In this document: positions 2,225 through 64,000 of the stretch, piece by piece
How the letters are laid out: each line of letters opens with the position of its first letter
How positions within the stretch are numbered: position 1 is the stretch's first letter
Assembly (NCBI GenBank): GCA_038087875.1
Contig: CM075993.1
Location: forward strand, 10,666,001 to 10,730,000
From: Malacoraja senta
Lineage: Eukaryota
Reading direction: 5' to 3'
Length of the DNA: 64,000 bases
Translations under genes and position numbers: made by a program
Notes under the pieces: model-generated
What the model was told of the DNA's origin: nothing
What the model saw: only the letters and a program-made list of their open reading frames with translations
Databases searched by the model: none

Positions 2225-3814
2225 AGCGCCGTGAGACTTCCCTAGCGACGGCGAGGCCTAGTCCCGGACCCGCCTCGGATGGTGCCACCACCATGTGAGT
2301 CGTCTCTGCTACTGCTCCCACCCACCCACCCCGGGGTGCTGGTGCTGGGTCTTTGGTGACCAGCCTTAGAGGATGCGACGCACATTCAGGAGGTTATGGC
2401 TGCGGAACAGCTGGGGATACCAGAGGTAGCACCAACTATGCAAGATCTGTACCTCTAGTACCTTGGCAACAGCATCTTGGAGACACAAAAAGCTGGAGTA
2501 ACTCAGCAGGTCAGGCAGCATCTCTGGAGAATAGATGACGTTTCGGGTCGAGACCCTTCTTGACCCATAACGCCACCTATTTCTTTTCTCCAGAGATGCT
2601 GTCTGGCCCGCTGAGCTACTCCAGCTTTTTGTGTCTATCTTCGGTTTAAACCAGCATCTGTAGTTCCTTCCTACACTAGGAGCAGGAGAGGGTTTGACCC
2701 TCAAGCTTACTCCACAAGTCTGATTTCAACTTCACTGTTTTGCCTTATCCCCAATAACCTATTTTCCCCTTTAAGATCTAAAATCTATGTCAGTTGTATG
2801 GGGTAGGGTATTCCAAAGATTCACAGTCCCCGGGCCTGTTAACCTACAAACCTACTGTCTTTAGCATGTGAGAGGAAACCCAAGCAATCCCAGAGAGAAC
2901 ATGCAAACCCGTTCATTATCGGTGACTTCTATATCCTGACATTGTATTCCTAGTTCTAGTTTCCCTTACTCAGAGAAACCCTCTCAAGATCTCACTGATT
3001 TAAACATTCTTTTAAACTCTAAAGAGTAGAGCCGCAATCTAATCCTTTGTTCAAGACCCTTCTTCTCGTGTTATCTCTCTGCCTCTGTATGGGTCAAGTT
3101 CAAGTTCACATTTATTGTCACATGCACCAATTGGTACAGTGAGATTTGAGTTACCATACAGCCACACGAATAAAAAGAACACAATACACGATAGAATTTA
3201 ACATGAACATCCCCACACAGCGGAATCAACGTTTCCCACTGTGAGGGAAGGCAATAAAGTTCAGTCATCTTGCTCTTTGTTCACCCGTGGTCGGGGCCTT
3301 TGAGCCCTCCGCAGTTGTCGCTATGGTGGACTGATGTTCAGGCCCTCTCGCTGGGATGATCGGAGCTCCGGCGGCTAGAAACTCCGCAAGCCACAGCGCC
3401 ACGGTGTTAATCAGCAGGCCCAACACTCTGCAGCTCCAACACGGCGATCCCCGGTAAGGCAACGTCCTGCTCCACAATGTTAATTCAGTGCTGTGCCACT
3501 GCTGAAGCTCTGGCAGGTCTCCGGCAGGAAAGGCCGCGCCAATCCAGATGGTCGGGGGGGGGGGGGGGGGGTGGGAAGATGCGACTCGGAGAAAAGACGC
3601 ATCTCGACCAGGAAGTGAATGGGAAACGGTTTCCCCCTATTCCCCCCCATCCCCCACATAAAAAAGACTTACATGGCAACGAAGACACTCAAAATCGAGC
3701 ACATTCTATCTTTATTAATTTGCTGATCACTTAAATAGACACATTCAGTTAACTCCTATAACTCGCTTTTAATTCACTGTCCTAGGTTTCTACTCAACAT
3801 GATGGGTGCCAAAT

Positions 3815-4110
3815 TTAGTTTAGTTTAGAGATACAGCACGGAAACAGGCCCTTCGGCCCACCAAGTCCGCACCGGCCAACGGTCCCAACACACTCGGGAC
3901 AATTTACATTTATACCAAGCCAATTAACCTACAAACCTGTACGTCTTTGGAATGTTGGAGGAAACCGAAGATCTAGGCGAAAACCCACCCGGTCACGGGG
4001 AGAACGTACAAACTCCGTACAGACAGCACCCGTAGTCGGGAGCAAACCCGGGGCTCTGGAGCTGCAAGCCCTGTAAGGCAGCAACTCCACTACTGCGCCA
4101 CTGTGCCGCC
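3815..4110 (-). mobile_element. tRNA-derived V-SINE (HE1-like), representative copy of about 18-20 in the window
   Basis: tRNA-like head GGCGGCACAGTGGCGCAG with a B-box-like segment, V-domain GGAGTTTGTACGTTCTCCCCGTG...GGTTTCCTCC, CR1-like tail GGGCCGAAGGGCCTGTTTCC and (CTAAA)n end. Other copies near 18160, 21765, 22921, 24133, 24665, 28445, 35590, 38345, 40215, 40963, 53300, 53830, 61505 and 63515. Confidence 0.85.
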
Positions 4111-4364
4111 CAATTGTGTGAGATGCACTGGCCGGGTTCACTGATAAGGTTGGAGTCTTCTCTAAGTTCCAAACTCAAGGTTCTTCTGCTGCAATAGTTG
4201 TTCCCAGGTTGTTGTTCTGATGTGCTTGATGTTTCCTTTATGCACCAATCTTTCAGAATGCTAGGACTACTCAAACCCCAACTAAACCAATCAGACACAA
4301 AGGAGAGTGGAATTGATTGCTCTCGGCAAATTGATAATCCTGACTAAATCTACCTAGGTATTGC

Positions 4365-5295
4365 ACGATACGATAGAACTTTATCCCAGGAGGCAAAACA
4401 CAAAATACATGAAATTAAAGTGACGAGTGGAAAGGCTTGGGGGATGTGCAAAGATTGGGGAAGGGAAGGGGAGTCAGTCTCAGTCTACCCCACGACAGAA
4501 GGGGGAGGAGTTGTAAAGTTTGATAGCCACAGGGAAGAAGGCTTGCATCTTGGTCGGACCAGTCTGTTGCTGAAGGTACTACTCAAGGTGACCAGTGTGT
4601 CATGGAGGGGGTGAGCTGTATTGTCTAAGATTCTCAGTAGTTTGGGGAGCATCCTCCCCACCAAGACCACCACCCATGAATCCAACTCTGCCCCCAGGAC
4701 AGAGCCAGCCTTCCTGATGAGTTTGTTGATCCTATTGGCGTCCGCAGCCTTCGCCCTGCTGTCCCAGCACACAGCAGCGAAGAAGATGGCACTGGCTACC
4801 ACTGATTGCTACAACTTTGGCAGCATCTTACTGCAGACATTGAAGGAGCGGAGCCTTCTCAAAAAGTACAGCCGGCTCTGTCCCTTCTTGCACAGGGCCT
4901 CAGTGTTCCTGGACCAGTCCAGTTTATTGTCCAGGTACACTCCAAGGTATATATACTCCCTGGTAAACCGCATCCACACCATTGATAGAGACAGGGGACA
5001 GGGGTGATCCTCTCCTCCTAAAGTCCACCATAACTCCTTAGTCTTGTTGGTGTTGAGCTGCAGGTGATCCAGCCCACACCACTCAACAAAGTCGTTGACT
5101 ACACATCTGCATTCAGCTTCCCTCCCCTCACTGATGCAGTCCACAATTGCAGAGTCATCTGAAAACTTCTGCAGGAGGGGGAGTTTAATCTGAATTCCAA
5201 GGTGTAGATGGTAAACAGGAAGGGAAAGAGGACCGTCCCTTGTGGGGCCCCTGTGTTGCTCACTACCATGTCCGAGACACAGACATGCACTGTTT
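4365..5295 (-). mobile_element. Rex1/Babar-type non-LTR retrotransposon, 3' fragment with frameshifted RT
   Basis: ORF pieces SNTGAPQGTVLFPFLFTIYT, LQLNTNKTKEL, YLGVYLDNKLDWSRNTEALCKKGQSRLYFLRRLRSFNVCSKML and VASAIFFAAVCW. Confidence 0.8.
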
Positions 5296-8200
5296 TAACC
5301 TCTTATTTACCTCTTATTACCGTAGTAACAGCAAGCCCTTCCATCTGTTGTCGAGGCCTTTGATACCACGGGGGATAGTTCAACATTTCTTATTTCTACA
5401 ATCAAATGATCACTGTTTTGCTTTCAATTTATGAAGCCTGTGAGACTTTTAATCCCTAACAAAAGATAGGATCTGAGAATAATGAGACTGAGAGACTTAT
5501 TTCTTTTCAATTCCATTTTGTTATCTCATGAAGATCTGGTTTTGGTCTGTATCTCACAGTTTAATGGCTGTAGATAGCTTCTCACAACAACTCCCAGTCA
5601 CAATTCTGTGAAAACTTCCATTCAATTGGCATTCTAAAGAATATCACAGACAATTAACTACCCTGTGCAAAACACAAAGTGTGTTGGGCAGCACCTGTGG
5701 AGGAAATGGACAGATGATGTTTCGGGTCGGGACCCTTCTTGATCAGTCTGAAGAACGGACGACCCGAAATGTCGTCTGTCCATTCCTTCCACGGATGTTG
5801 TCTGACCTGCTGAGTTACTCCAGCACTTTGTGTTTTGCTTAAGATTTCAGCCTCAGCAGTCTCTTGTGTGTTAGTCTCAGCAATCCTTGAGTGTGGCCTG
5901 TTCAAATTGAAAACATCATCCAATGGTCTGGAGTGATTATTTTTAACACTTTTCTCACAATGACTTGTTGCTCATGTGAAATTAGCCATCATACTTTGTA
6001 GAGGTTCAGCTGGCAGCTAGAATCATTGCAGTGAAACATCTGAACTGCCACCAAAGCAAGTACGCCCTTTAAAATAAAAAGATCCAAAAATTATGCTCAG
6101 GACAAAAACTATCACCTTCAACCTCTATAACAAACAGATGCTGATTGACGTTACCCCTCTCCAATAACTGTAGAACATAGAGCAGAGCAGCACGGGAACA
6201 GTCCCCTTGGCCCACAATGTCCGTGTCGAACATGATATCACGTTAAACTAATCTCCTGCATCTAAAAGCCTCTTGAATGCCACTACCGCCTCCATTTCCT
6301 GCATATCCATAGCCTATATGAAATAAATGTAGTATTTTCTGTTTGAAAATTTAGTATTGTATTTGACTCGGGTGACGCTCAGACTATATATCTATGCCGA
6401 CAGCAAGAATACCAATTTATGTAACATTACCTGACTGAAAAGATCATCGGAAATACCAGCACTCAGTCACTGCGCTCCTTGTCCAGTCATTCAGCAAGAT
6501 TCAAGAGAGTTTATTGTCATGTGTCCCAGATAGGACAATGAAATTCTTGCTTTGCTTCAGCACAACAGAATATAGAAGGCATGAATACAGAACAAATCAG
6601 TGTGTCCATATACCATTATATAAATATATACACACATGAATAAATAAAAAAGATAAAGTGCAAATAAGCAGATAATGGGCTATTAATGTTCAGAGTTTTG
6701 TTTTTAGTTGAGTTTAATAGCCTGATGGCTGTGGGGAGCAAGATCACGGCAAATCTACCACTTCTGCACCATTTCCCCGTCCAATCCTAATATCCCTTGA
6801 TCCCTTCAATATCCAGAAATCGATAGATCTTTGTTTTGAATTCAGTGATGGCATACGTCTCCACAGTCGTCCAGACTGAGAATTACCAGAATACTGCCTG
6901 CTCTAGGGGGTATTAGCTACAAGAAGAGGTTGGGTTGTTTTCTCTGGAATGCCAGTGGTTGAGGGGAGACCTGATATAAGTATATAACATTGTGAGAGGC
7001 ATAGATAGGGTAGACAGTCAGAACCTATTTCCCAGGGTGCGAATGTCAAGGACTAGAGGGGATAACTTTAAGGTGAGAGGGCAAAGTTTAAAGGAGATGT
7101 TTGCGGGGCAAGTTTATTTTTACACAGAATGCCTGGAATATGCCGCTAGGGATGATAATGGAGACGGATGCAATAGTGGTGTTTGATAGGCACATGGATA
7201 CGGAGGGGCTATGGGTCGTTTGCAGGCAGAGGAGATTAGTTTAAGTTGGTATCATGTTCGGCATAGACATGGGATGAAGTGCCTGTTCTTGTGCTATACT
7301 GTTCTATGCTCTTCTATTGTCTACTGTTCTTCCTGAGTGCAACAGTCATACCTGTACTTGTCTGTTTCAATGTCCTCCTTGCCCATCTACCTCATTCCAT
7401 TCTGTAAACCTGGGATAATCTATTATCTGTGCCCTCATTTATACCATCTTGTTCACCTATCAACCTAGTGCTCAAGAATCCTATTTCTATTATGGTTAAG
7501 CATGATGGTTAAGAACATAAAGCATAGAACAGTGCAGCACAGAAACAGGCCCTTCGGCCCACAATGTCTGTGCCGAACATGATGCCAAGATAAACGTTTA
7601 TCTGCCTGCACATGATCCATATCCCTCTAATCCCTGCGTATCCAATTCAAGACATTGATGTACGTAGGCCATTTGGCCCTTCATGAACCACTGATCTTTT
7701 ATTTCAAAGCCACCTTTCTGCGCTAACCTAATACCCCTCGATTCATTTAATGTCTAAAAAATCAATTTGTCTTGAATATACTCGGCTACTGAGATTCCTC
7801 AGCTCAATTGAGATGTGAATTCCATAGATTCACCACCCTCTTGGTGAAGAAATCTCTTATATCTCAGTCAAATGGGCTGTCTATTTATTTTGAGACTGTT
7901 CCCTGACTTTAATCCCCAACCAGTGGAGATTTTCACCCTTGTATTCAAATCTATCATTGTTCTTGTCCCTCCCTCTCCATAAAATCATGCTTTTGGCCAG
8001 CTGCCTTGATATCATCGGATCTGGCTTACGCCAGAGGATGTTTTGTTTTGTTGAAGGTCTCCTAGAAATGGAAGCTATTGTTGCCTGCCCATAAATATGT
8101 GTGCTTTAGACAGGCAATATCGAGTTAGATTAATTAGGCTGCCTGGGGGAGGGAGTGTTTTGCCTGTGTGACTGCATTAGGGCCTTTGTCATAGCACAGG

Positions 8201-8832
8201 AGAAAGGTTGATAAGAATTAGCAGATGTCCTTTAGCTCCATAAATAAATATGTGGATGTAACGTGGGGGAAGCGGCTGAGAAGTGGCCTGGGACCGTAAT
8301 CTTATGTCAATTAACAAGCCTTTTTTTATACAAGGGAGTCGAGATACTTCCATTCCTGGCCTGGATATTGGGAGCAGATAATTTACAAATTATGAAATTA
8401 TTCCAAAGGAGATGAGCTTGATGAGGATATGGAGTAATTTTCTTTCCAGAATTTATCTCGACGAATACGTGTCTCAGCAGGTTGCTCTGAGTCAGAAAAT
8501 TGTGAGTTCAAGTCCCCACTCCCCCGATATGTAGGCAGACAGTAATAGAGTGGCCCTTCAGCCCACCTTGCCTTCACCGGCCAACATCCCACCAGCCTGC
8601 GCTTGGCCACATATCCCTCCAAACCTATCTATCCATGTTCCTGTCCAACTGTTTCTTAAACATTGGGGTAGTCCCTGCCTTAACTACCTCCTCTGGCAGC
8701 TTGTTCCATAACCCACCACCCTTTGTGTGAAAACGTTACCGCTCAGATTCCTATTAAATCTTTTCCCCTTGAACCTATGTCCTCTGGTCCTCGATTCCCT
8801 TACTCTGGGCAAGAGACTCTGTGCATCTATAT

Positions 8833-9053
8833 TAGACAAAAATGCTGGAGAAACTCAGCGGGTGAGGCAGCATCTATGGAACGAAGGAATAGGTGACGTT
8901 TCGGGTCGAGACCCTTCTTCAGACTGATGAAGGGTCTCGACCCGAAACGTCACCTATTCCTTCGCTCCATAGATGCTGCCTCACCCGCTGAGTTTCTCCT
9001 GCATTTTTGTCTACCTTCGCTTTTTCCAGCATCTGCAGTTCTTTCTTAAAGAG
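8833..9053. mobile_element. Palindromic Penelope-derived short element with back-to-back hammerhead cores and a 14-bp TSD
   Basis: Arms of about 90 bp inverted around 8923. CTGATGA-AGGGT-CTCG-ACCC-GAAAC-GTC at 8924-8951 (+) and a CTGAAGA version at 8895-8922 (-). CTGTGCATCTATAT is duplicated at 8819-8832 and 9054-9067. Confidence 0.8.
8924..8951 (+). ncRNA. Minimal hammerhead ribozyme motif (Penelope-associated type)
   Basis: Conserved CUGAUGA and GAAA boxes flank a GGGU/ACCC stem II. Stem III is reduced to palindromic ACGU ahead of a GUC triplet. Activity is untested. Confidence 0.65.
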
Positions 9054-10535
9054 CTGTGCATCTATATACTTCTTCTTCTTGCGTATGGCGTGCACAGCCT
9101 AAAGTTGTCGGACAACATTCTATTTGATCTTATTTGATTGTGTACGTTGATTGCATTCGTTGAAACAGGGCGGACCACGTGAAGATAGCAATCTTCCACC
9201 CCATCTATATGCTGCTATAATACTAAAGGAGGGTTGTACTGTCAGAAGCACTGTTTTGAAAGTGACATAAAGTTTAGTTTAGTTTAGGGTTACAGCATAG
9301 AAACAGGCCCTTCAGCCCATCATGACCATACCGACCGTTGATCACCCATTCTATGTTAGTCCACCTACTCATCCACTCCACACACACCAGGGGCAATTTA
9401 CAGAGGCCAATTAATCTACAAATCCGCAAGTCTTTGGAATGTGGGAGGAAACCAGGGCACCAGCAGGAAACACACGTATTCACAGGGAGAACGTGCATAT
9501 TGCCTGAGGTCAGGATTGAACCCAGGTACCTGACGCGCCCAACATTTGTAGGTTAATTGGCCTCTGGTTCTAAATTTAGTTTACACTCCCTTGAGTGTAG
9601 GGAGGTGCTGTGACAGTGAATTAGCGCAGCATTAGTGTGAATGGTCGGTGTGGACTGAGTGGGCCGGGGGCCTGTTTCCGTACTGTATCTTTTAAAAAAT
9701 CAGATCCCAATGAGTATTGACATCAAGTTACTCAAATAGTCGCAACCTCTGTCTTTTTGTGCCAAATCCTTTATAATTAAATGATAGGATCATCTCACCA
9801 GATCAAGCTTTGTAAAGAGATTTGCACATTTATGCACTATTAGTTGAAACTGCTTTATGATATTATATGATATTCTGTAATAACACGTTTTGATAATTAA
9901 ATCACAATAAATCAATAGGCCTATAACACAAATTAGATAAGAAAAGAGCCATTGTTGAAAATTCTGTGTAAGATTCTCAACAGTTAAATATCACGACCCT
10001 TTCAAAGCAGAAGAAGATGACAAAAATAGGAGCAGGAGAAGACAATTCAGCCCATTACGTTTGTTCTACCATTAAACCCTATCGTAGCTATTCCTCTTTC
10101 TCGATATCACTTTCCTGCATTCCCTCCCTATCTCTGATATCCACCTGTAGAATGGATCATTCTCCTTCCTAAATAGATGAGGGCCTCAACAGCCCTCGAT
10201 GACAGTAAATTCCAAGATCACAAGAATTACTCTTCATCACAATCTGACAATGTCACATTCATCAAACCACTTTGAGTGCTTATTTTGGTCATGTTTGCTT
10301 CACATATTTCTTTTCAAGTTCACTTGCCCTTTTCTATTTTGTTGACACCTCTGAATGTTTTCTCAAGACCCACTGGACTCTTACGCAACGCAACTCAGCT
10401 CAGAACCACTGATTGGTCTTTCAGTGGCTCTGGTGTTGGCCCCAGTTGTTCTCACCACAAATCCCAATGCAATGCAACCTCCACCTCACCCAGAGCCACC
10501 TCAGGAACAAACTTGACAAAAGGCTAAGCCTGTGA

Positions 10536-11039: not shown

Positions 11040-11997
11040 ATGTCTCAATGAGATCAGGAAATGGCTTGAAGTTCTTTCCTTGTGTAAAAATTCATCCAAT
11101 ATGAAACTCTTTCTGTGCAATGTGCAGAGCCTGGTTCGATGCTGTATGTATAAACTATGCTGAACTAAATTGCTGAAGAAATAAGGAACTTCAGATGCTG
11201 GTTTACAAAAAAAGAGACAAAGTGCTGGAGTAACTCAGCAGATCAGGCAGCATCTTTGGAGAATATGAATAGGTGACGTTTCATAAGGTCATAACGAATA
11301 GGAGTAGAGTTAGACCATTCGGCCCATCAAGTCTACTGCCATTCAATCATGGCTGATTTATCTCTCCCTCCTAACCCCATTCTCCTGCCTTCTCCCCATA
11401 ACCGCTGACACCCGTACTAATCAAGAATCTATCTATCTCTGCCCTAAAAATATTCACTAACATGGCCTCTACAGGATTCTGGCGCAAAGAATTCCACAGA
11501 TTCACCACTCCCTGACTAAAGGAATTCCTCCTCGCAACCTCACACAATCTGACAATGTCACATTCATCAAACCATGTGCCTATCTAAGCGCTATTAAATT
11601 TCACTATTGTATCTGCCTCCACCACCAGCACTGGCAATGTGTTCCAGGCCTCCACCACCCTCTGTGTTAAAACTATCTCTGCCTTAAAAATATCCACTGT
11701 GGATATTCTAAACTCCAGCGAGTACAGGCCCAGTGCCGACAAACGCTCATCATAGGTTAACCTACTCATTCCTGGGATCATTCTTGTAAACCTCCTCAGA
11801 TAGGGTTCACAAAATTGCTCAAAATTTCCGAAATGCAGCCTTGCCAGCACCTTATAGAGACTCAACATTACAATGGTGTTTTTGTATGCAAGCCCTCTTG
11901 ACAAGACAATGGGCAGAGATGAAAAATAGGTGTGGTACAAAAGGATTAACGAGTTGCGAATTGTGAAGCCAGAGGAAGAAACTGAACTGTTTATTGT

Positions 11998-12066
11998 ATG
12001 CTGCTCCTTCCTGTCCTACCGTTGACACTGTTGTGCTTGGGACTGATATGTCTGGGTCATGCAGAG
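11998..12066 (+). CDS. Candidate CA12 signal-peptide exon (unconfirmed)
   Basis: ATG-initiated MLLLPVLPLTLLCLGLICLGHAE followed by AG|GTCTGT; hydrophobic core and G-H-A cleavage-like site. It ends in phase 0 and is flanked by repeats. Confidence 0.3.
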
Positions 12067-12179
12067 GTCTGTCTGGCCCTTTAATGGCTGTATAAGGAAA
12101 AACACTGGAATTCTGACCACAAAAGAACAAGATAAAAGATCATCTAAAAAATATTTGTAGGTACAAGATACTACTCGTG

Positions 12180-49773: not shown

Positions 49774-49791
49774 GTATATATAATCTTTGTG

Positions 49792-52615: not shown

Positions 52616-54411
52616 GTAAGGAATAAGGTTCCACTGTGTTGTCCAAACTGACAATGTTTCTGTGACACATCTACGCAAGGTGCCAACACATCAATGATCC
52701 TCAGGCCGGGATTTTAGATGAAGATGGGTCTCGACCCGAAACCTCACCTATTCCTTCTCTCCGGAGATGCTGCCTGTCCCACTGAGTTACTCCAGTTGTT
52801 TGTGTCTTATCTTCACATCCCTGTAGGAGCGCTTCCGCCTCGGGAACTGCAGTGCTCTCATCTCGCTGCTGCCCTCGGGCAGAAGGCATAGGAGCCTGAG
52901 GTCCGTGACTTCCAGGTTCAAGAACAACCTCTTCCCAACAACTTGAACACTACACAACACTAACCTCAGCAAGACAGATACAAAAAGCTGGAGTAACTCA
53001 GCGGGTCAGGCAGCTTCTCTGGAGAAAAGTGATAGTTGACATTTCAGATTGGAACCCTTCCAACCCGAATCATCACCTATTCCTTCTCTCCAGAGATGCT
53101 GCCTGTCCTGCTGAATTACTCCACCACTTTGTGCCTATCTTCGGTATAAACCAGCATCTGCAGTTCCTTCCTGCATCGTGACCTCAGTAACTATGATCTT
53201 ACATAGACTGCATCATTTGATGCACGGCCATCTTTGTTTTTGGTGCTATTATGGTTAGCTGGTGTTGTGGTCCTGGATGATCCAACATTATCATTATTTA
53301 GTGGCGGCATATTGGCGCAGCGGGTAGAGCTGCTGCCTCATGGCGCCCAAGACGCATGTTCGATCCTGACCTTGGGTGCTGTCTGCATAGAGCTTGCACG
53401 TTCTCCCTGTGACCGTGTGGGTTTTCTCCAGGTGCTCCGGTTCCCCCCCACATCCCAAAGACGTATAGGTTAATTGGCCCTCTGTAAATTGTCCCCTGGT
53501 GTGTAGGGAGAGGATGAGAAAGTGGGATAGCATAGGACGATCGATGGACGGCATGGACCCGGTGGGCTGAAGGGCCCGGTTCCTTGCGGTATCTCTAAAA
53601 CTAAAACTAAATCTGTATGTGTTATTGTTTATTATGGGCCTGTTAAACTGTAGCAAGTTCAATTTCATTTCCTTCTTCCATTGTTGGTACATTTCACAAT
53701 TAAACTCTGGGCTGTCATGACTCATCTCATGAGAGCCTGCAGGCATAGACTATAGGTGCCGTGCTGGCACCATGATGTAGGGTAGACCAGTGAATCACGG
53801 GTGTCTCTGTGGCTGCTTGCCGTAGTTGAGTTGAGTTTAGTTCAGAGATACAGCGTGGAAACAGGCCCTTTGGCCCAGGTGCCGACCGGTGATCCCCCCC
53901 ACACACACACACTTGGGACAATTTACACTTACACCAAGCCAATTAACCTACAAACCTGTACGTCTTTGGAGTGTGGGAGGAAACCGAAGATCTCAGAGAA
54001 AACCCACGGGGGGAACGTACAAACTCCGTACAGACAGCACTCGTAGTCAGGATTGAACCTGGGACTGTGGCGCTGTGAGGCTGCAACTCTATCGCTGTGT
54101 CACCGTGCCGCCCTGGACACTAGCTACCTTTTAGTTCTCTGAAGTACTTCTCATGTCAAGCGACTGACTGCATTGACATTCTGAGGCGTGCCTTCACCAA
54201 GTACACAGTGTCCTCCCTTGTCCACTGACACAGTGAAGTCCGTGCATGGCATAAGCTCATAAGTGATAGGAGCAGAATTAGGCCATTCGGCCCATCAAGT
54301 CTATTCCGCCATTCAATCATGGCTGATCTATCTTTCCCTCTCAGCCCCATTCTCCTGCCTTCTTCCATAACCCCTGACCCCCGTACTAAGATGCTGCCAC
54401 TTTCTCTGCAG

Positions 54412-54493
54412 GTGTAATCCTGATCATCGCACTCTGCTGCCTATTTGGTGTCGCGATCGCTGTGGCAATCACCATCTTCTTTCTGAAGAAGAG
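54412..54493 (+). CDS. CA12: CA12 exon 10, transmembrane helix (82 nt)
   Basis: (G)VILIIALCCLFGVAIAVAITIFFLKK(R): hydrophobic stretch followed by basic stop-transfer residues; CTGCAG/GTAAG junctions. Confidence 0.92.
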
Positions 54494-55023
54494 GTAAGAT
54501 GTAACGGCGTCATCTTTGTACTCTGGCTCTTGTAGCCGAGCTCCCCTCCTGCCCTCTGCACCTTCGCCATCCCCCACCTGCTCCTCCGCCGTGCCCTCAC
54601 CAGCTCACGGACGCGTCCCTTCCCCAGACCGCTCCATCACCGCCATGGGTCATCCCAAGAGCAGGCTCAGCAGAGGGAGGTGGCCACGGGGTCTGGTTAG
54701 AGGAGCCCCAGGAACGTGAGGCTGCTGCTCCAGTGGTGGGGGGTGCAGGGTGATTGGGGGGGGGGTGTTTGGGGGGTGCAGGGTGGCGGATGGGGGGGTA
54801 AACACAACCAGATCAACTAGAGCGTGCAGGGGGAAGGAAGTGACACGGGCAGCGGGATGGGGAATGAAGGAAGTGACACGGGGCCAGATCTGCAGTTATT
54901 GGTGAGGTTTGAAGGTGAATCTCTGATGGTTTGGGGATGGAGGCGGGAGTGAAGGGTGAGCCGATCTTAGTGAGAGTCTGGATGCAACAGCAGATATCGA
55001 CCAAGCACAGGAACAGGCCCTTT

Positions 55024-57818
55024 AACCAAATAACCATTACAGCACGGAAACAGGCCATCTCGGCCCTTCAAGTCCGTGCCGAACATTTAAAATTAAAAAA
55101 ATAAAATAATGATAAATACTTCCCCCTAGTCCCATCTACCTGCACTCAGACCATAACCCTCCATTCCTTTCCCGTCCATATACCCATCCAATCTATTTTT
55201 AAAGGATAAAATCGAACCAGCCTCCACCACTTCCACTGGAAGCTCATTCCACACAGCTACCACTCTCTGAGTAAAGAAGTTCCCCCTAATGTTACCCCTA
55301 AACTTCTGTCCCTTAATTCTCAAGTCATGTCCCCTTGTTTGAATCTTCCCTACTCTCAATGGAAAAAGCTTATCCACGTCAACTCTGTCTAACCCGCTCA
55401 TAATTTTAAAGACCTCTATCAAGTCCCCTCTTAACCTTCTGCGCTCCAAAGAATAAAGACCTAACTTGTTCAACCTTTCTCTGTAACTTAGTTGCTGAAA
55501 CCCAGGCAACATTCTAGTAAATCTCCTCTGTACTCTCTCTATTTTGTTGACATCCTTCCTATAATTAGGCGACCAAAATTGTACTCCATACTCCAGAATT
55601 GGCCTCACCAATGCCTTGTACAATTTTAACATTACATCCCAACTTCTATATTCAATGCTCTGATTTATAAAGGCCAGCACCCCAAACGCTTTCTTTACCA
55701 CCCTATCTACATGAGATTCCACCTTCAGGGAACTATGCACAGTTATTCCTAGATCCCTCTGTTCAACTGCATTCCTCAATTCTCTACCATTTACCATGTA
55801 CGTCCTATTTTGATTTGTCCTGCTGAGATGTAGCACCTCACATTTATCAGCATTAAACTCCATCTGCCATCTTTCAGCCCACTTTTCCAAATGGCCTAAA
55901 TCTCTCTGTAGACTTTGAAAATCTACTTCATTATTCACCACACCACCTATCTTAGTATCATCTGCATACTTACTAATCCAATTTTCCACACCATCATCCA
56001 GATCATTGATGTACATGACAAACAACAGTGGACCCAACACAGACCCTTGAGGCACCCCACTAGTCACTGGCCTCCAACCTGACAAACAACCATCCACCAT
56101 TACTCTCTGGCATCGCCCATTCAGCCACTGTTGAATCCATCTTGCTACTCCACCATTAATACCCAACAATTGAATCTTCTTAACCAACCTTCCATGAGGA
56201 ACCTTGTCAAAGGCCTTACTGAAGTCCATATAGACAACATCCACTGCTTTACCCTCATCAATTTCCCTAGTAACCTCTTCGAAAAATTCTAGAAGATTAG
56301 TCAAACATGACCTTCCAGGCACAAATCCATGTTGACTGTTCCTAATCAGACCCTGCTTATCCAGATGCTTATATATATTATCTTTAAGTATCCTTTCCAT
56401 TAATTTGCCCACCACTGACGTCAAACTAACAGGTCTATAATTGCTAGGTTTACTCTTAGAACCCTTTTTAAACAACAGAACAACATGCGCAGTACGCCAA
56501 TCCTCCGGCACTATTCCCGTTTCTAATGACATTTGAAATATTTCTGTCATAGCCCCTGCTATTTCTACACTAACTCCCCTAAATATCCTCGGGAATATCC
56601 TGTCAGGACCTGGAGACTTATCCGTTTTCATATTTTTCAAAAGTGTCCGCACCTCCTCTTCTTTGAATCTCATAGTTTCCATTGCTACTCTGCTTGTTTC
56701 CCTTACCTCACATAATTCCATATCCTTCTCCTTGGTGAATACCGAAGAAAAGAAATTGTTCAGTATCTCCCCCATCTCTTTTGGCTCTGCAGATAGCTGT
56801 CCACTCTGACTCTCTAATGGACCAATTTTATTCCTTGTTATCCTTTTGCTATTAATATAGCTGTAGAAACCCTTTGGATTTACTTTCACCTTACTTGCCA
56901 AAGCAACCTCATATCTTCTTTTAGCTTTTCTAATTTCTTTCTTAATATTCTTTTTACATTCTTTATACTCCTCAAGCACCTCATTTACTCCATGCTGCCT
57001 ATAATTATTGTAGATCTCTCTCTTTTTCCGAACCAAGTGTCCAATTTCCCTTGAAAACCATGGCTCTTTCCAATTTTTACTATTTCCTTTCAACCGAACA
57101 GGGACATAAAGATTCTGTACTCTTAAAATTTCACCTTTAAATGTCCTCCATTTCTCTTCTACATCCTTCCCATAAAACAACATGTCCCAATTCACTCCTT
57201 TTAAATCCTTTCGCATCTCCTCAAAGTTAGCCTTTCTCCAATCAAAAATCTCAACCCTAGGTCCAGTTCTGACCCTCTCCATAATTATATTGAAACTAAT
57301 GGTATTGTGATCACTGGACCCGAAGTGCTCCCCGACGCATACCTCCGCCACCTGCCCTGTCTCATTTCCTAACAGGAGGTCCAGCACTGCCCCTTCTCTA
57401 GTAGGTACCTCTATGTATTGCTGCAAAAAACTATCCTGCACACATTTTACAAACTCCAAACCATCCAGCCCTTTTACAGAATGTGTTTCCTAGTCTATGT
57501 GTGGAAAATTGAAATCTCCCACAATCACTACCTTGTGCTTACTACTAATATCTGCTATATCCTTACATATTTGCTCTTCCAATTCTCGCTCCCCATTTGG
57601 CGGTCTATAATACACCCCTATAAGTGTTGCTACACCTTTCCCATTTCTCAGCTCCACCCAAATAGCCTCCCTAGACGAGCCTTCTAATCTATCCTGCCAA
57701 AGCACTGCTGTAATATCTTCCTTGACAAGCAATGCAACACCCCCACCTCTTGCCCCTCCAATTCTATCACCCTTGAAGCAACGAAATCCTGGAATATTTA
57801 GTTTCCAATCACAGCCCT
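55024..57818 (-). mobile_element. Young CR1 LINE with near-complete ORF2 (endonuclease + RT) and one in-frame stop
   Basis: The 777-aa ORF 55126-57459 is in frame with the upstream endonuclease segment (GVYYRPP, GDFNFPHID) across a TAG at 57490-57492; YADD motif intact. Confidence 0.96.
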
Positions 57819-58191
57819 CCTTTGGCCCATAATGTCTGTGTAATACTTGAGGACAGGTTAAATTAATCTCTGCCTGCCCGTGATCCATATCCCTCTATTT
57901 CATAAGTGATAGGAACAGAATAAGGCCATTCGGCCCATCGTCTACTCCACCATTCAATCATGGCTGATCTATCTCTCCTAACCCCATTCTCCTGCCTTCT
58001 CCCCATAACCGCTGACACCCGTACTAATCAAGAATCTATCTATATCTGCCTTAAATATATCCATTGACTTGGCCTGCACAGCCTTCTATGACAATGAATT
58101 CCACAGATTCACCACTCTCTGACAATAGGAATTCCTCCTCGCACATATCCATGTGCCTATCTAAGCACGATTAAATGTCCCTGTTGTATCT

Positions 58192-58300
58192 GCCTCCACC
58201 ACCAGCCCAGGCAATGTGTTCCAGGCCTCCACCACCAGCCCAGGCAATGTGTTCCAGGCCTCCACCACCAGCCCAGGCAATGTGTTCCAGGCCTCCACCA
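58192..58300. repeat. 33-bp tandem triplication within a CR1 fragment
   Basis: GCCTCCACCACCAGCCCAGGCAATGTGTTCCAG x3. Confidence 0.95.
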
Positions 58301-58599
58301 CCCTCTGTGTTAAAACGTGCCCCACACATCTCCATTAAACGTTGCCCTGGGTCCATTTTACCGTGCGGTGAATATTTCCCTCCTCAGCCTCCCTCCCATA
58401 TAAGTGACCGGGAGCTGTTGGAGTGGACAATGTGTGCCGGGCTGGGGTCAGGCAGGGTGTTGCATCGTTCAGCAGCAGCATTAGATTCAGTCTGGCCCAG
58501 ACCAGACACTGGTATTCACTTGGAACAAGCGGCTCAACACTGCCCACTGGTGGAAGAACATCCTCAACACCATTGCAGTTCACAGTCATATTCTGGAGA

Positions 58600-58629
58600 T
58601 CTGTCTCTCTCTCTCTCTCTGTCTCTCTG

Positions 58630-58692
<63 letters not shown>

Positions 58693-58753
58693 GTTTCTCT
58701 CTTTCTGTCTTGCTCTCTCTCTCTCTCTCCCTGTCGCTCCCCCTCTCTCTCTG

Positions 58754-58830
<77 letters not shown>

Positions 58831-58853
58831 GTTTCTCTGTCTCTCTCTCTCTT
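58600..58853. repeat. (CT)n/(CTGT) microsatellite
   Basis: Direct reading. Confidence 0.97.
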
Positions 58854-60929
58854 TCACGATCAGGACCATCTCACCTCTTGAGGACCTCAGTCAGCCAGTC
58901 CCCTGTATTACTGATGTAGAGGAGAGCAGTCCCAGCTCCCCAAACCCCTCCTGCCTGTGCTCTTCATTTGAACATAGAACATAGAACAGTACAGCACAAA
59001 AACAGGCCCTTCAGCCCACAATGTCTCTGCTGGACATGATGCCAAGACAAACTCTTACCTGCCTGCATATATCCCTCTATATCCAAGTGCCTTTTCAAAA
59101 GTCTCTTAAAGATCACTATAGTATCGAGCTCCACCCCGCCCCTGGCAATATGTTCCAGCAACTCATCAGTGTGTGTAAAAAAACTTTCCCCTCTCACCTT
59201 AAAGCTATAACCTCTAGTCTTTGACATTTCCATCCTGGGAAAAAGGTTCTGCTGCCTGTCCAATATTCGCCTCTCATAACATTCTAGATTTCTATCAGGT
59301 CTCCCCACACCGCTGGAGTTCCAGAGAAAACAATCCAAGTCTGTCCAGCCTCTCCCTGTAGCTAATACCGCTTAAAAGACTAATAATGTTAAATAGACAC
59401 AAAAAGCTGGAGTATCTCAGCGGGTCAGGCAGCATCTCTGGAGAAAAGGAATAGGAGACATTTCGGGTGGGAATCTGAAGAAGGGTTCCGAACCAAAACG
59501 TCACCTATTCAATCTCTCCAGAGATGCTGCTTGACCCGCTGAATTACTCCAGCATTTTGTGTCTATCATTGTGTCTACCCCAGCATCTGCAGTTCCTTCC
59601 TACACATCATTCTGGTAAACCTTTTCTGCACGCTCTTCGCAGCCTCCACATCCTTACTGTAATGGGGGCAACCAGAACTGCATGTAATACTCCAGATGCA
59701 ACCTAACCAATGTCGTATGAAGCTGCATCATGAGTTTCTGACTCTTATATACTCAATAGACAATAGACAATAGGTGCAAGAGTAGGCCATTTGGCATCGC
59801 CATTCAATGTGATCATGGCTGATCATCCACAATTCCTGCCTTCTCCCCATATCCCCTGACTCCGCTATTTTTAAGAGCCCTATTTAGCTCTCTCTTGAAA
59901 GCATCCAGAGAACCTGCCTCCACCGCCCTCTGAGGCAGAGAATTCCACAGACTCACCACCCTCTGTGTGAAGAAGTGTTTCCTCGTCTCCGTTCTAAATG
60001 GCTTACTCCTTATTCTTAAACTGTGGCCCCTGGTTCTGGACTCCCCCAACATCGGGAACATGTTTCCTGCCTCTAGCGTGTCCAAGCCCTTAACAATCTC
60101 AATGTCCTGACCCATGAAGGAAAGCACACACGCCTTCTTTATCAATGGTGTCCTTATTGTCATGGGCACCTGGTACAGTGAACATTTTTTTACATACAGC
60201 CCAGCAGGACGACCCCAGTGCATAAACACAATCACCCCGGTCAGCTCAGCGCGTGGCCATTTTGGCGGCATGGTACAGTCCCATCTCCAGCCGGCCACAA
60301 AGGCCCGTTGCAGCTGTCATCTCCATTCCCGCTCGCCCTGTGATCCGATGTCCCTCTCACGCACGGCCATCTTTTCAGACCCCTCTGTCTGAAGACCTCC
60401 CGCAACCGAGCTCGAGGGTGCCGGAGGTAAGACCTTTAGACACATATACAATTCTTAAAGGATTGAACAAGCTAGATGCAGGAACAATGTTGGGGGAGTC
60501 CAGAACCGGGGGTCACTGTTTAAGAATAAGGGGTTTAAGACTCATTTAGGACTGAGATGAGGAAAAACCTTTCCACCCAGAGAGTTGTGAATCTGTGGAA
60601 TTCTCTGCCACAGAAGGCAGTGGAGGCCAATTCACTGGATGTTTTCAAGAGAGAGTTCGATTTAGCTCTTAGGGCCAATGGAATCAAGGGATGTGGGGAG
60701 AAAGCAGGAACGTGGTACTGATTCTGGATGATCAGCTATGAACTTATTGAATAGTTGGAAGGGCCGAATGGCCGACTCCTGCACCTATTTTCTATGTTTC
60801 CATGTTTCTAAGCCCCCCGCCGGTTCTGCTCGCTGTTGTCCAGTGTCCGTGGCGGTGGCGGTCTCGTTCCCGTCCACGTGCGTTGCTGCCCGTTCTTCTC
60901 TGTTCCCAGCTGAATCCTCGTTCCCACAG

Positions 60930-61005
60930 AGCGCGTAAAACGACAGAGGACGGGGGGATGATCTACAAGGCGGCGACGGCGGCAGAGACTCCCGCACAGG
61001 CCTGA
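60930..61005 (+). CDS. CA12: CA12 exon 11, cytoplasmic tail and stop
   Basis: (R)ARKTTEDGGMIYKAATAAETPAQA* versus human [24 protein letters not shown]; CACAG acceptor in the correct phase. Confidence 0.92.
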
Positions 61006-62091
61006 GCCCCTGGCAGCATCTCACGTGGCCACATCACACTAACGAGTCGGGACATCGAGCATCGATACGAGGAGATGTGGCAACAACCTATAGCTGTTTG
61101 CAGTGCAGTGTCATCTGTAGTGTCCTCTCCTGAATCCTGCACATGCGGTTGATTGAAATGTTCTCTTCAAATGACAATGTTTCATGTACTTCTTTTTCCG
61201 TTTCTAAAGCCACTCCTTAAAATGCACTCCTGCCCATTGTAAAAGGGAAATATTCATAGGAGTTTCACATCTGGAATCGTATGAACTGCAGATGTTGGAG
61301 CCTTGAGCAAAACACAAAGTGCTGGGTTACACAACAGGTCAGGCAGCATCTGTGGAGGGATGGAACCGCCTGGTTACTCCAGCACTTTGTATTTTACTTG
61401 ATTCCAGCATCTGCAGTTCCTCGTGCCTCCATCTCACTGCAGAATCCCATCAAGAGATGTCCACATTGAAGAAGTTCTCCTCCTCTCTCTCCAACTGGAG
61501 TTCAGTTTAGTTTAGAAATACAACCTCTAGTTGTCTGGAAACAGACCCTTCGGTCCACGGAGTCCGTGCAGACCAGCGATCCCCACACACTAAACTATCC
61601 TACACAATCTATGGGCAATTTACAATTATACCAAACCAATTAATCTACAAACCTGCGCGTCTTTGGAGTGTGGGAGGAAACCGAAACACCTGGAGAAAAC
61701 CCACGGGGAGAAGGTACAAACTCCGTACAGACAGCACCCATAGTCGGGATCGAACCCGGGCCTCTGGCGCTGCAAGGCAGCAACCCTACCGCTGCGTCAC
61801 CATGCCACACGCTCTCACTGCTCCCCCTCTGTGATTCCTCCTGCTCTCCTGTCCGATCCATGTCCTCCACAGATGCTGCCCGACCCGCTGAGTTTCTCCA
61901 GCACTTTGTGTTTTATTCATGAATTTAATAATATGAGGTGGGACTTTGGTAATTTTACCACCGAGGATATGTCAGATATTTATTCCAAATCCTCAATCTG
62001 AGGTTAAAAGAATTTGGTTCAACAAATTAAAAAGTAAAATGGTGTCTCTCAGTACATTAGACCACAGCTGATAAGCAACAAATTGCAGCAA

Positions 62092-62097
62092 AATAAA
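62092..62097 (+). terminator. Candidate CA12 polyadenylation signal
   Basis: AATAAA followed by GU-rich GTGTGATTTCTGTGTTT; ATTAAA also at 62026. Confidence 0.4.
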
Positions 62098-62668
62098 TGT
62101 AGGAATGTGTGATTTCTGTGTTTACCAGTAGATATTGGTTCCAGTTTGTGCAATACCAGCAATATAACAGTATCGTTTTTGTTTTGGAGGTACACATGGA
62201 AACAGGCCATTCGGCCCAGCGTGTTCATGTCAACCATCGATCACCCATTCACACTAGTTCTATGTTATCCCACTTTCCCATCCACTCCCTACACAATAGG
62301 GGCGATTTACAGAGGGCCAATTAACCAACAAACCCGCATGTCGTTGGGATGTGGGAGAAAACCAGAGCTCCCGAAGGAAACAGAGCATTTGTCGACCCTG
62401 GGCCTGCACTCGCTGGAGTTTAGAAGCATGAGGGGGAACCTCATTGAAACGTACAGAATAGTGAAGGGCTTGGATAGAGTGGATGTGGAGAGGATGTTTC
62501 CACTAGTGGGAAAGTCTAGGCCTGAGAATTAAAAGACGTTCTTTTAGGCAGGAGATGAGGAGGAATTTCTTTAGTCAGAGGGTGGTGAATCTGTGGAATT
62601 GTTTGCCACAGATGGCTGTGGAGGCCAAGTCAGTGGATATATTTAAGGCAGAGATAGATAGATTCTTG

Positions 62669-62862
62669 TGTTAAAGAAGGAACTGCAGATGCTGGAAAAT
62701 CGAAGGTACACAAAAATGCTGGAGAAACTCAGCGGGTGCAGCAGCATCTATGGAGCGAAGGAAATAGGCTGAAGAAGGGTTTCAGCCCGAAACGTTGCCT
62801 ATTTCCTTCGCTCCATAGATGCTGCTGCACCCGCTGAGTTTCTCCAGCATTTTTGTGTACCT
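62669..62862. mobile_element. Palindromic hammerhead-module element inserted in a CR1 fragment, 14-bp TSD
   Basis: TAGATAGATTCTTG is duplicated at 62655-62668 and 62863-62876; inverted arms; CTGAAGA...GAAACGTT core starting at 62769. Confidence 0.88.
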
Positions 62863-64000
62863 TAGATAGATTCTTGATTAGTACAGGTGTCAGGGGTTAT
62901 GGGGAGAAAGCAGGAGACTGGGGTTAGGAGGGAGAGATAGATCAGCTATGATTGAATGGCGGAGTAGACTTGATGGGCCAAATGGTTTAATTCTACTCCT
63001 ATCACTTATGATCTTATGAAACCCACGCGGTCACGGGGAGAACGTGCCAACTCCACCCAGACAGCACCCGGGATCAGGATCGAACCCGGGTCTCTGGCGC
63101 TGTGAGGCAGTGGTTCTACCACTTGAGCCACTGTGCTGCCCATATACATAGTCAGTAGCAATACACGGTACAATTCTTAGATGATTACGCAGGCGCACCT
63201 GACAATATTGAAGGGGCCAATAAAGTGGGCCATTTTGCGATTACCAATAGCCCAAAGCTGTGTCAGCTGCTCATATGTCAAAGATTGGAGTTGAAATGAA
63301 ATGCTGTTGATCTATTTACTTTTTCCTGTAACAGCGAAACATTATTCTGTATCCCAAACTTTTGATGAGTGATTTGTGAATTTTGTAAGGGTCAATTTCC
63401 GATACCTGACCAGCTGTAAACCAGGGGTTGCCTGTATTGTATCATCTTTATATTTAACACGAAAAACATTAAAAAAAATTCTAAAATAGCCACGCAGCCT
63501 GCATGTACTTTCAGGGATACAGCGTGGAAACAGGCCCTTCGGCCCACCGAGTCTGTGCCGACCAGCGATCACCCCGTAACCAAACAATATCCTACACACA
63601 CTAGGGACAATTTACCATTTATACAAGCCTATTAACCTACACACCTGTACGCCTTTGGAGTGTGGGAGGAAACCGGAGCACCCGGAGAAAAACCCGCATG
63701 GTCACAGGGAGAATGTACAAACTCTGTACAGACAGCATACATAGTCGGGATCGAACCCGGGACTCTGGGGCTGTGAGGCAGCAACTCTACCGCTGCGCCA
63801 CCGTGCCGCTGAGCTTTGATTCCTGTTAACACAGGCCAGATTAGTTGTTAATGATTTTAAACTGGCTGAAACGTCACCTATCTACGTCCTCCACAGATGC
63901 TGCCTGATCCACTGAGTTACTCCTGCACTTTGTGGGTTTTTTGGGGGGTAAACCAGCATCTGCAGTTCCTTGTGTCTCAACTGAAACTGGCTGTTTTCCA

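What the first reader, a model, noticed from the sequence alone, without database searches (positions are those of the whole stretch)
2481..63975. High-copy, independently mobile hammerhead-ribozyme mini-element derived from the Penelope 3' end
Seen: a 100-220 bp module (...CTGAAGAAGGGTCTCGACCCGAAACGTCACC...GATGCTGCC...GCTGAGTTACTCCAGC...CAGCATCTGCAGTTCC) recurs roughly 35-40 times, complete or partial, by eye count. It is contiguous with the 3' ends of three Penelope copies (21483, 51039, ~12270). It also occurs alone with clean 14-15 bp TSDs (8833-9053, 20218-20315, 62669-62862). Known: Penelope-like elements carry minimal hammerheads whose short palindromic stem III makes them cleave as dimers. 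Inferred: this is a non-autonomous, retrozyme-like family mobilised in trans by the Penelope RT/GIY-YIG, approaching the V-SINE in abundance. I cannot tell whether it is already catalogued for this taxon.
Basis: partly seen in the sequence, partly recalled or inferred. Interest (0 to 1): 0.75.

Follow-up and report, generated by a model that had tools for sequence, protein, structure and literature searches.

The report
Mass-produced Penelope ribozyme stubs
This shark- or ray-like DNA holds 59 short copies of the ribozyme-bearing end of a Penelope jumping gene, many as back-to-back pairs, which are likely stubs made when its enzyme starts copying inside its own RNA, so they could show how these elements insert.

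Summary
The repeat is real and more abundant than reported: 59 arms at 42 loci, 8.4% of the window. It is the pseudo-LTR piece (minimal hammerhead plus 'tail') of Neptune-type Penelope-like elements (PLEs). Three copies sit on RT/GIY-YIG bodies. Seven of 36 solo loci have exact 10-15 bp target duplications (0 of 300 controls).

Ends are discrete: 5' at 2-3 nt before the ribozyme core, 3' at about +92 or +130, also in raw reads of a coded related genome, where the module is about 50 times deeper than the matching Penelope body.

Copies keep the uncleaved ribozyme and form no tandem arrays, so this is not a retrozyme. Most likely (0.55) they are dead-end stubs: RT starts at either of two internal sites and runs off the RNA's 5' end, from one nick or both. 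Independent propagation from master copies is not shown (0.22). Cleavage was not tested; covariation was not significant.

The parts
19330..21479 (+). 5'-truncated, frameshifted Neptune-type Penelope body (RT, Cys-rich linker, GIY-YIG, UTR), family A; inserted in a TTTAG repeat
   Evidence: RT and GIY-YIG motifs in translation; sequence
21480..21575 (+). Module attached to the body, short 3' end (no tail)
50937..51069 (-). Module with tail (-2 to +130) attached to family A endonuclease fragment 51070-51727; core C3 at 51066, predicted cleavage after 51039
12158..12990 (-). Second Penelope family: endonuclease fragment, about 280-bp UTR and a divergent module (12158-12287)
34380..34874 (+). Type C module (34745-34874) after a UTR-like stretch related to the second family; no ORF
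   Evidence: 33-bp match E 4.6e-4
8819..9067 (.). Head-to-head pair, type B; left arm short, right arm tailed; exact 14-bp duplication; 5-nt near-palindromic centre
62655..62876 (.). Head-to-head pair, type B; left arm tailed and starting at the cleavage site (+29, read by eye), right arm from +1, short; exact 14-bp duplication
20203..20330 (+). Single short arm, type B, nested in the Penelope RT; exact 15-bp duplication
50292..50404 (-). Single short arm, type B, nested inside a type A copy; exact 14-bp duplication (not a true pair)
39308..39454 (+). Single tailed arm from +11; exact 13-bp duplication
37794..37929 (.). Centre-deleted head-to-head pair; exact 13-bp duplication
63859..63993 (+). 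Single tailed arm from +21; 10-bp exact duplication
14819..14972 (-). Single tailed arm (+1 to +130); 12-bp duplication with 1 mismatch
22591..22813 (.). Head-to-head pair; left arm tailed from +21, right arm short from -2; 15-bp duplication with 2 mismatches
2481..2676 (.). Head-to-head pair with junction type J1 (left arm to about -1, right arm from +16, T at +22)
26168..26311 (.). Head-to-head pair, junction J1, right arm truncated
37420..37597 (.). Head-to-head pair, junction J1, both arms short
46625..46802 (.). Head-to-head pair, type A, same kind of centre as 8833-9052; left arm truncated
5666..5872 (.). Head-to-head pair, type C
13000..13180 (.). Degraded head-to-head pair
13870..14096 (.). 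Head-to-head pair; left arm tailed, right arm short; both arms share a variant at +26
31117..31303 (.). Head-to-head pair, left arm truncated at a TTTAG repeat
52970..53178 (.). Head-to-head pair; left short, right tailed; 10-bp duplication with 1 mismatch
59393..59605 (.). Head-to-head pair; left short, right tailed
61275..61428 (.). Degraded head-to-head pair, type C, both arms tailed
11183..61917 (.). Remaining single or partial arms at 11183, 18716, 21107, 23888-24085, 24596, 24917, 29459, 31516, 32120, 33047, 35975, 36145, 38265, 48431, 49590, 50197, 50394, 52719, 61860

Best explanation
The repeat is the hammerhead-plus-tail end piece of Neptune-type Penelope-like retrotransposons, found alone or as back-to-back pairs, and the lone copies are likely dead-end stubs made when the Penelope enzyme starts copying at one of two internal sites of its RNA and runs off the RNA's likely 5' end. 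Steps: (1) shown: the same module sits on RT/GIY-YIG bodies and alone, with 3' ends at about +92 or +130 and 5' ends at -3 to +1; (2) inferred from the Anolis Poseidon in vitro work: the two 3' ends are the two internal RT start sites and the 38 nt between them are the tail; (3) inferred: the 5' end is the end of the template RNA, probably a transcription start in the pseudo-LTR, not the ribozyme cut; (4) inferred: staggered nicks 13-15 bp apart give the duplication; priming from one nick gives a single arm, priming from both gives a head-to-head pair whose two cDNA ends are joined by microhomology or filler; (5) inferred: stubs lack the RNA downstream of the distal start site, so most would not be re-copied; (6) untested: the hammerhead is a passenger that cleaves weakly, if at all, as a protein-assisted dimer.
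For: Discrete ends: 24 of 59 arms reach -2 to +1 (4 of them body-attached; the reference began at -2) and 23 of 59 carry the tail. In raw reads of a coded related organism, 75,752 reads leave the stretch at -2, 37,717 at +130, 18,835 at +95 and 30,397 at +87; module depth 262,077 against 4,385-5,705 in four UTR/endonuclease bins; the top listed joint links -2 to +130 head to tail (89 reads). Exact duplications of 10-15 bp at 7 of 36 solo loci against 0 of 300 shuffled flank pairs. 15 true head-to-head pairs, 0 tail-to-tail. Tail on one arm only in 10 of 12 readable pairs (p 0.019 against a coin toss). In 7 of those 10 the tailed arm is the one with less 5' sequence, which simple cDNA fold-back cannot give (read). 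Centres differ among loci. Three or more sequence types, two on different Penelope UTRs. PMC11167929: both strands cut and extended, two internal RT starts that define the tail, RNA needed to ORF position 172 while the start site given in the text lies at 111-118, cleavage not needed. PMC3846280 and PMC8557442: inverted pseudo-LTR, one-sided 30-40 bp tail and duplication are the normal PLE signature.
Against: No 5'-complete Penelope copy is in the window and no genome was held, so the transcript start and the sequence after +130 were not seen. The in vitro data come from a Poseidon-clade element; this family has the Neptune-type Cys linker. Three loci share one junction and a T at +22 found in no other of 48 arms, which suggests some pairs were copied as a unit. 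Type B (8-9 arms) has no body in the window. None of the 15 joints listed, of 4,420, is head-to-head, so the pairs are shown only in this window. The loose-end consensus at -2 (agreement 0.47) resembles the second family's UTR, so part of the 75,752 reads continue into another Penelope family and the 50:1 ratio applies to family A bodies only. Later deletions in palindrome centres could blur the fold-back test. Most solo loci lack a clear duplication.
Confidence: 0.55

Rival explanations
1. A self-propagating non-autonomous mini-Penelope: some single or head-to-head copies are masters that are transcribed and re-copied in trans by the Penelope protein.
For: Three loci with unrelated flanks (2558, 26258, 37520) share junction J1 and T at +22 (3 of 48 arms). 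About 50-fold excess over family A bodies. Type B is young, has clean duplications and no body in the window. Trans action on pseudo-LTR-flanked DNA (PMC3846280) and non-autonomous Chlamys elements (PMC8557442) are precedents.
Against: The three J1 loci differ at subtype positions +32/+40 between arms, so one master does not fit neatly; J1 also has a 3-nt microhomology and could recur. The other 12 centres are all different in sequence (two share a near-palindromic type). In Anolis, RNA downstream of the start site is required. No promoter was identified.
Confidence: 0.22
2. Ordinary 5' truncation with a strong stop: RT copies normal 3' pseudo-LTRs of long transcripts but stalls or is released just past the hammerhead, for example at a 3' splice site or splicing intermediate at -1/0.
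For: Family A has a pyrimidine tract and CAG right before the core, and the second family also keeps AG there. In D. virilis an intron ends at the 5' end of helix I (PMC4209133; intron in PMC2377424). 15 of 59 arms start at +6 to +21, within or next to stem II, so structure-related stops exist.
Against: The stop is sharp to 1-3 nt and head-to-tail joints use it exactly, as expected for a template end. No strong structure was predicted upstream. Solo copies share no sequence upstream of -3, so no common spliced leader is seen.
Confidence: 0.14
3. A non-LTR retrozyme: monomers cut out by the hammerhead, circularised, and reinserted.
For: Hammerhead motif present; retrozymes derive from PLE pseudo-LTRs and were reported in one chondrichthyan (bioRxiv 10.64898/2026.07.22.740005). 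One arm (62763) starts at the cleavage site.
Against: Units run from -2 to +92/+130, not cut to cut; 1 of 59 arms starts at +29; one partial tandem locus among 42 and no arrays; head-to-tail joints in reads are rare and join -2 to +130; helix I is 2 bp.
Confidence: 0.05
4. A MITE-like DNA transposon derived from a Penelope palindrome.
For: 15 loci are long inverted repeats flanked by duplications.
Against: Single arms also have clean duplications (20203, 39308, 50292, 63859); duplication length varies from 10 to 15 bp; the two ends are unequal (tail on one side); centres vary.
Confidence: 0.02

Closest known systems
Minimal hammerheads of metazoan PLEs, dispersed as single motifs (Cervera and de la Pena 2014, PMC4209133)
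   Same: Core, extra base between positions 9 and 10.1, G10.1-C11.1, palindromic 15.2-16.2 without loop 3; mostly single dispersed motifs, some pairs on opposite strands.
   Different: Helix II is 4 bp and helix I only 2 bp here (4-5 bp in their schistosome motifs, 2 bp in D. virilis). Estimated 270,000-540,000 arms in the read set (assumed genome 2-4 Gb) against about 4,000 (coelacanth) and 9,000 (Xenopus) motifs. They did not describe fixed ends or duplications for solo copies in the parts read.
Canonical EN+ PLE insertion structure (Arkhipova 2013, PMC3846280; Craig 2021, PMC8557442)
   Same: Head-to-head inverted pseudo-LTR, optional 30-40 bp tail on one end, target duplication, occasional solo pseudo-LTR.
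   Different: Here the whole ORF is absent: the insertion is only the two inverted end pieces, or one, and these outnumber bodies (38 of 42 loci). Duplications are 13-15 bp against 8-10 bp in Adineta.
Anolis Poseidon PAc (Frangieh 2024, PMC11167929)
   Same: Hammerhead followed about 90-130 nt later by two preferred 3' ends; AC-rich distal end; uncleaved template.
   Different: Different PLE clade; in PAc the ORF starts at stem II, here no conserved frame was found (blank; type B breaks the frame).
Non-LTR retrozymes (Cervera 2020, PMC7229834; Li 2026 bioRxiv)
   Same: Short, non-coding, type I hammerhead, PLE pseudo-LTR origin, ORF-less.
   Different: Retrozymes are head-to-tail tandem repeats with canonical hammerheads yielding circular monomers; these are dispersed single or inverted units with a minimal hammerhead and ends unrelated to cleavage.
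Non-autonomous Chlamys PLEs such as MRC1 (PMC8557442, passage)
   Same: ORF-less PLE derivatives similar to the ends of autonomous families.
   Different: Those are shown to be active families, often head-to-tail, and the Chlamys/Naiad clade is described as lacking canonical hammerheads; master-copy propagation is not shown here.

Membership tests
PLE minimal hammerhead | Conserved core CUGANGA ... GAAA ... UH | tested here: met
   Majority letters at all core positions; 14 of 22 arms spanning the motif have an intact core, 8 of 22 also 4-bp stem II, pairable 15.2-16.2 and a non-G cleavage base
PLE minimal hammerhead | Extra base between 9 and 10.1, G10.1-C11.1, palindromic stem III without loop | tested here: met
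   features from PMC4209133
PLE minimal hammerhead | Helix I of 4-5 bp | tested here: not met
   Only 2 pairs (73% of cells paired); same length as the D. virilis variant
PLE minimal hammerhead | Compensatory changes | tested here: inconclusive
   3 two-sided changes in 20 pairs, 77 of 500 shuffles as high; stem II 92.8% paired (21 of 59 arms given)
PLE minimal hammerhead | Self-cleavage as a dimer | not testable with these tools
   Cofolding favours another dimer (-21.1) over the hammerhead-type dimer without helix I (-12.7 kcal/mol); no Rfam hammerhead match
EN+ Penelope-like element (Neptune clade) | RT plus C-terminal GIY-YIG upstream of the pseudo-LTR | tested here: met
   Motifs in translation; weak Pfam GIY-YIG E 7.7e-4 below cut-off; homolog P0122 carries RVT_1 and GIY-YIG
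EN+ Penelope-like element (Neptune clade) | Cys-rich motif between RT and endonuclease | tested here: met
   C-x4-C-x2-C before the GIY-YIG in all three bodies; criterion from PMC3846280
EN+ Penelope-like element (Neptune clade) | Placement in an RT phylogeny | not tested
   No named Neptune reference sequences were available
EN+ PLE insertion signature | Inverted head-to-head end, one-sided 30-40 bp tail, target duplication | tested here: met
   15 pairs against 0; 10 of 12 one-sided; 7 of 36 exact duplications against 0 of 300
Non-LTR retrozyme | Head-to-tail tandem units, each with a hammerhead | tested here: not met
   1 partial '++' locus of 42; 89 reads for the top head-to-tail joint against 75,752 ending at -2
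Non-LTR retrozyme | Unit defined cut to cut | tested here: not met
   1 of 59 arms starts at +29 (by eye; automatic starts)
Non-LTR retrozyme | Linear and circular monomer RNA | not testable with these tools
   No raw RNA run was listed
Non-autonomous family with its own masters | Solo copies descend from solo copies | tested here: inconclusive
   Shared junction and T+22 at 3 loci, but arms of mixed subtype
MITE | Equal terminal inverted repeats and fixed short duplication | tested here: not met
   Unequal ends, single arms with duplications, 10-15 bp
SINE | Pol III A and B boxes | tested here: inconclusive
   0 of 59 arms with both, but the control SINE copy also failed the recalled pattern

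The most novel reading that the evidence does not exclude
The head-to-head pair is itself a mobile unit: an ORF-less, palindromic, MITE-shaped retroelement whose two inverted pseudo-LTR ends are both recognised by the Neptune RT/GIY-YIG protein, copied from master palindromes to hundreds of thousands of sites in skate, ray and shark genomes.
Probability: 0.2. Interest if true: 0.75.

Novelty: new variant of a known kind. Interest (0 to 1): 0.48.

Why it matters
How Penelope-like elements form their inverted ends and one-sided tails is stated as open in PMC8557442 and only partly answered in vitro (PMC11167929). These ORF-free insertions are the smallest form of that structure and appear to exist in the hundreds of thousands, so each gives a nick stagger, two start sites and a junction. 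That makes two-nick priming against fold-back, and by-product against master-copy origin, countable from any good elasmobranch assembly. It also means that one of the commonest short repeats of these genomes is Penelope-derived and may be misfiled as a SINE, MITE or miRNA hairpin. The ribozyme itself is of a known kind.

Tried and rejected
Rfam: 0 matches at gathering score in the whole window; only chance hairpin/miRNA matches in 46560-51300. The models do not seem to cover this minimal form, so this is no evidence against it. No own genome held. Pattern scans of viral and metagenome contigs: 0 and 0. Single-strand folding of 8 stretches: z from -1.65 to 0.64, none significant. Covariation not above shuffles. 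Module read as peptide against longer proteins: no hit. No full-length ORF of this family from a named elasmobranch among 18 longer homologs. No RNA holder on record; run X15 is only guessed to be RNA and holds contigs, so it was not used as evidence of expression. Pol III box test failed its control. Three look-ups in earlier findings were empty. Locus 50297-50470 was rejected as a pair (nested insertion with its own duplication). 21107-21178 was set aside as a probable local duplication of 21510-21590. Simple cDNA fold-back as the general source of pairs was rejected because the tail is on the 5'-shorter arm in 7 of 10 discordant pairs. The dimer-cleavage paper PMC5785218 was not held and is known here only through a review passage. 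Repbase and Dfam could not be searched.
Full report
Numbering. +1 is the C of the CUGA core; the predicted cleavage is after +28. An 'arm' is one copy of the module; a locus may hold two.

Setting. The window is likely elasmobranch DNA: the named homologs of the endonuclease come from skates, rays and whale shark. One exon-like stretch matches carbonic anhydrase (26487-26627, E 8e-11). No genome was held, so the evidence is the window, one read-laying run and papers.

Observation. A two-round nhmmer search found 59 arms, with none in the reversed window. They group into 42 loci and cover 5,353 bp, against 31 SINE-like hits covering 6,362 bp. Three arms follow Penelope coding sequence: 21480 (RT and GIY-YIG body from about 19330), 51069 and 12287, the last from a second family with a different UTR; 34745 follows a related UTR-like stretch without ORF. 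All three bodies have C-x4-C-x2-C before the GIY-YIG, the Neptune criterion given in PMC3846280; no tree was built. By best local score the arms split into types A 39, B 9, C 7, E 3, D 1 (one B call, 26258, is a near tie).

Target duplications. I tested 36 solo loci with boundaries set by eye (8 nt slack). Dropped from the 42: four UTR-attached loci, 21107 and 50197; 50297-50470 was replaced by its nested B arm. Exact duplications of 10 bp or more occur at 7 of 36 (10, 13, 13, 14, 14, 14, 15 bp) against 0 of 300 mismatched flank pairs; 12 bp or more with up to 2 mismatches at 10 of 36 against 2 of 300. Both single arms and pairs have them. Most loci have none that I could detect.

Architecture. 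Sixteen loci have a minus arm then a plus arm and none the reverse; one of the 16 is a nested insertion, leaving 15 head-to-head pairs. 3' ends cluster at about +91-95 and +130; 23 of 59 arms carry the tail. Of 15 pairs, 3 have a truncated arm (26168, 31117, 46625); of the other 12, ten have the tail on one arm, one on both, one on neither (read by eye; p 0.019). In 7 of the 10 the tailed arm has less 5' sequence than its partner, in 2 more, and 1 is symmetric. A fold-back copy cannot be longer at its 3' end than its template, so those seven point to separate priming of each arm, unless the centre was later deleted. Arms of a pair tend to be relatives: in 5 pairs each arm is among the other's closest 6%, both B pairs are B/B, but older pairs show no such link (mean rank 0.35 over 15 comparisons including the false pair). 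Centres vary. Two loci of different type (8921, 46670) share a 5-nt near-palindromic centre that two cDNA ends at -2 could anneal through. Three loci (2558, 26258, 37520) share junction J1 and a T at +22 seen in 3 of 48 arms, yet their arms differ at subtype positions; this is unexplained.

5' ends. 24 of 59 arms reach -2 to +1 (4 are UTR-attached, and the reference began at -2), 15 start at +6 to +21, and one (62763, by eye) starts at the cleavage site. Solo copies share nothing upstream of -3.

Reads. I laid 4 of 21 listed runs on 50780-51740 at 85% likeness. X21 is raw genomic reads of a coded organism, not necessarily this species; 1,938 million letters were read. Depth peaks at 262,077 on the module, 117,294 on the SINE piece and 4,385-5,705 in four UTR and endonuclease bins. 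Loose ends pile up at 51069 (-2; 75,752 reads), 50937 (+130; 37,717), 50980 (+87; 30,397, possibly where type B diverges) and 50972 (+95; 18,835); about 10,800 reads cover 51070. The window copy has a private base at -3, so -2 and -3 cannot be told apart. The cleavage site is not among the six X21 rows shown (24 of 5,458 rows shown in all). With an assumed genome of 2-4 Gb (recalled range) this is 270,000-540,000 arms and 5,000-11,000 family A bodies. Against my reading: the loose consensus at -2 resembles the second family's UTR, so some of those reads continue into another Penelope family; and none of the 15 joints shown, of 4,420, is head-to-head. The shown ones include head-to-tail -2/+130 (89 reads) and a tail-to-tail joint (16 reads). 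I do not know whether the tool drops close fold-back joints. The three contig sets show the same ends at -2 and +130 but their depth is no copy number.

Ribozyme. The motif matches the minimal PLE hammerhead of PMC4209133: core, extra base after position 9, G-C closing pair, palindromic stem III without loop. Of 22 arms spanning it, 14 have an intact core and 8 pass all checks. Helix I is 2 bp. On 21 arms, pairing was 88.8% with 3 two-sided changes, not above shuffles (77 of 500). Cofolding prefers a different dimer by about 8 kcal/mol. Rfam gave no hammerhead match. Activity is untested.

Mechanism. PMC11167929 shows for Anolis Poseidon that both strands are cut and extended, that RT starts at two internal sites whose interval is the tail, that RNA to ORF position 172 is needed while the start site given in the text is at 111-118, that 5'-shortened RNA works, and that cleavage is dispensable. 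Applied here (inference): any RNA that begins just before the hammerhead offers start sites about 95 and 130 nt from its 5' end; RT run-off gives exactly the observed units; one nick gives an arm, two nicks a head-to-head pair; and the stubs lack the downstream RNA, so most are dead ends. What sets the 5' end is open: a transcription start fits best, but the site is also a 3' splice-site look-alike, and in D. virilis an intron ends at helix I. Confidence 0.55; self-propagating masters 0.22; strong stop on long RNA 0.14; retrozyme 0.05; MITE 0.02.

Comparison. It works like a canonical PLE insertion stripped of its ORF (PMC3846280, PMC8557442). It is not a non-LTR retrozyme: the tandem and cut-to-cut features were tested and not met (definitions from PMC7229834 and bioRxiv 10.64898/2026.07.22.740005). 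Dispersed single minimal hammerheads, and some opposite-strand pairs, were already reported (PMC4209133), at 4,000-9,000 per vertebrate genome; axolotl retrozyme hammerheads reach 120,000 (section heading).

Novelty. Nine searches listed no paper describing this repeat in elasmobranchs or ORF-less head-to-head units at this scale; the library lacks most subscription papers, and Repbase and Dfam were not searchable, so it may be catalogued. Seen: PMC11167929 parts 1-2 of 4 and a term search of its 3 text supplements (no hits; figures with the second start site not seen); bioRxiv preprint parts 1-3 of 5 (supplements not seen; they may list chondrichthyan families); PMC3846280 parts 1-4 of 5; PMC4209133 parts 1-2 of 4; passages only of PMC8557442, PMC7229834, PMC6765202, PMC2377424; PMC5785218 not held. 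Verdict: new variant of a known kind, interest 0.48.

Noticed in passing
window:51230-51345: In raw reads the last 110-120 nt of the endonuclease ORF are about five times deeper (25,900-27,100) than the UTR and the rest of the endonuclease. Could be cross-family conservation or a short spliced first exon; the stop codon overlaps a possible splice donor.
   Followed up: partly
window:51032-51069: 87 reads show a 38-nt head-to-tail duplication of the hammerhead alone (-2 to +35), a minimal dimer that could be the cleavage-competent form.
   Followed up: no
window:21455-21482: Pyrimidine tract plus CAG immediately before the hammerhead, like a 3' splice site; also fits an initiator-like motif (recalled consensus).
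   Followed up: partly
window:37516-37530 and 2562-2572: At junction J1 the minus strand places six bases before the core that are complementary to +29 to +34, i.e. a possible 6-bp helix I, though the long palindrome would likely compete.
   Followed up: partly
window:46719-46790: The module has two GCTG and two CAGC motifs that can form nested stems; each preferred 3' end lies about 13-16 nt after a CCAGC motif. Possible positioning signal for the two start sites.
   Followed up: partly
window:21107-21190: A module fragment plus TTTAG flank sits inside the endonuclease without duplication and shares variants with 21510-21590; probably a local templated insertion.
   Followed up: partly
window:26487-26627, 36290-36550, 39990-40145, 54410-54495: Exon-like pieces of a carbonic anhydrase gene on the + strand (only the first was tested, Pfam E 8e-11); the last looks like a transmembrane exon. 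Many modules would lie in its introns.
   Followed up: partly
window:55126-57489 and 15927-17270: Long open RT frames (787 and 447 aa, RVT_1) of a likely CR1-type LINE (name recalled); the longer looks little decayed.
   Followed up: no
window:20203-20330, 50292-50404: Type B arms inserted into a Penelope body and into another module; module-to-SINE-tail joints are also among the top joints in reads, suggesting a taste for repeats such as TTTAG.
   Followed up: no
window:22021-22220: A 200-base run of N (assembly gap).
   Followed up: no
window:959-2260: GC-rich stretch with short tandem repeats and a possible first exon on the minus strand near 1380-1550.
   Followed up: no
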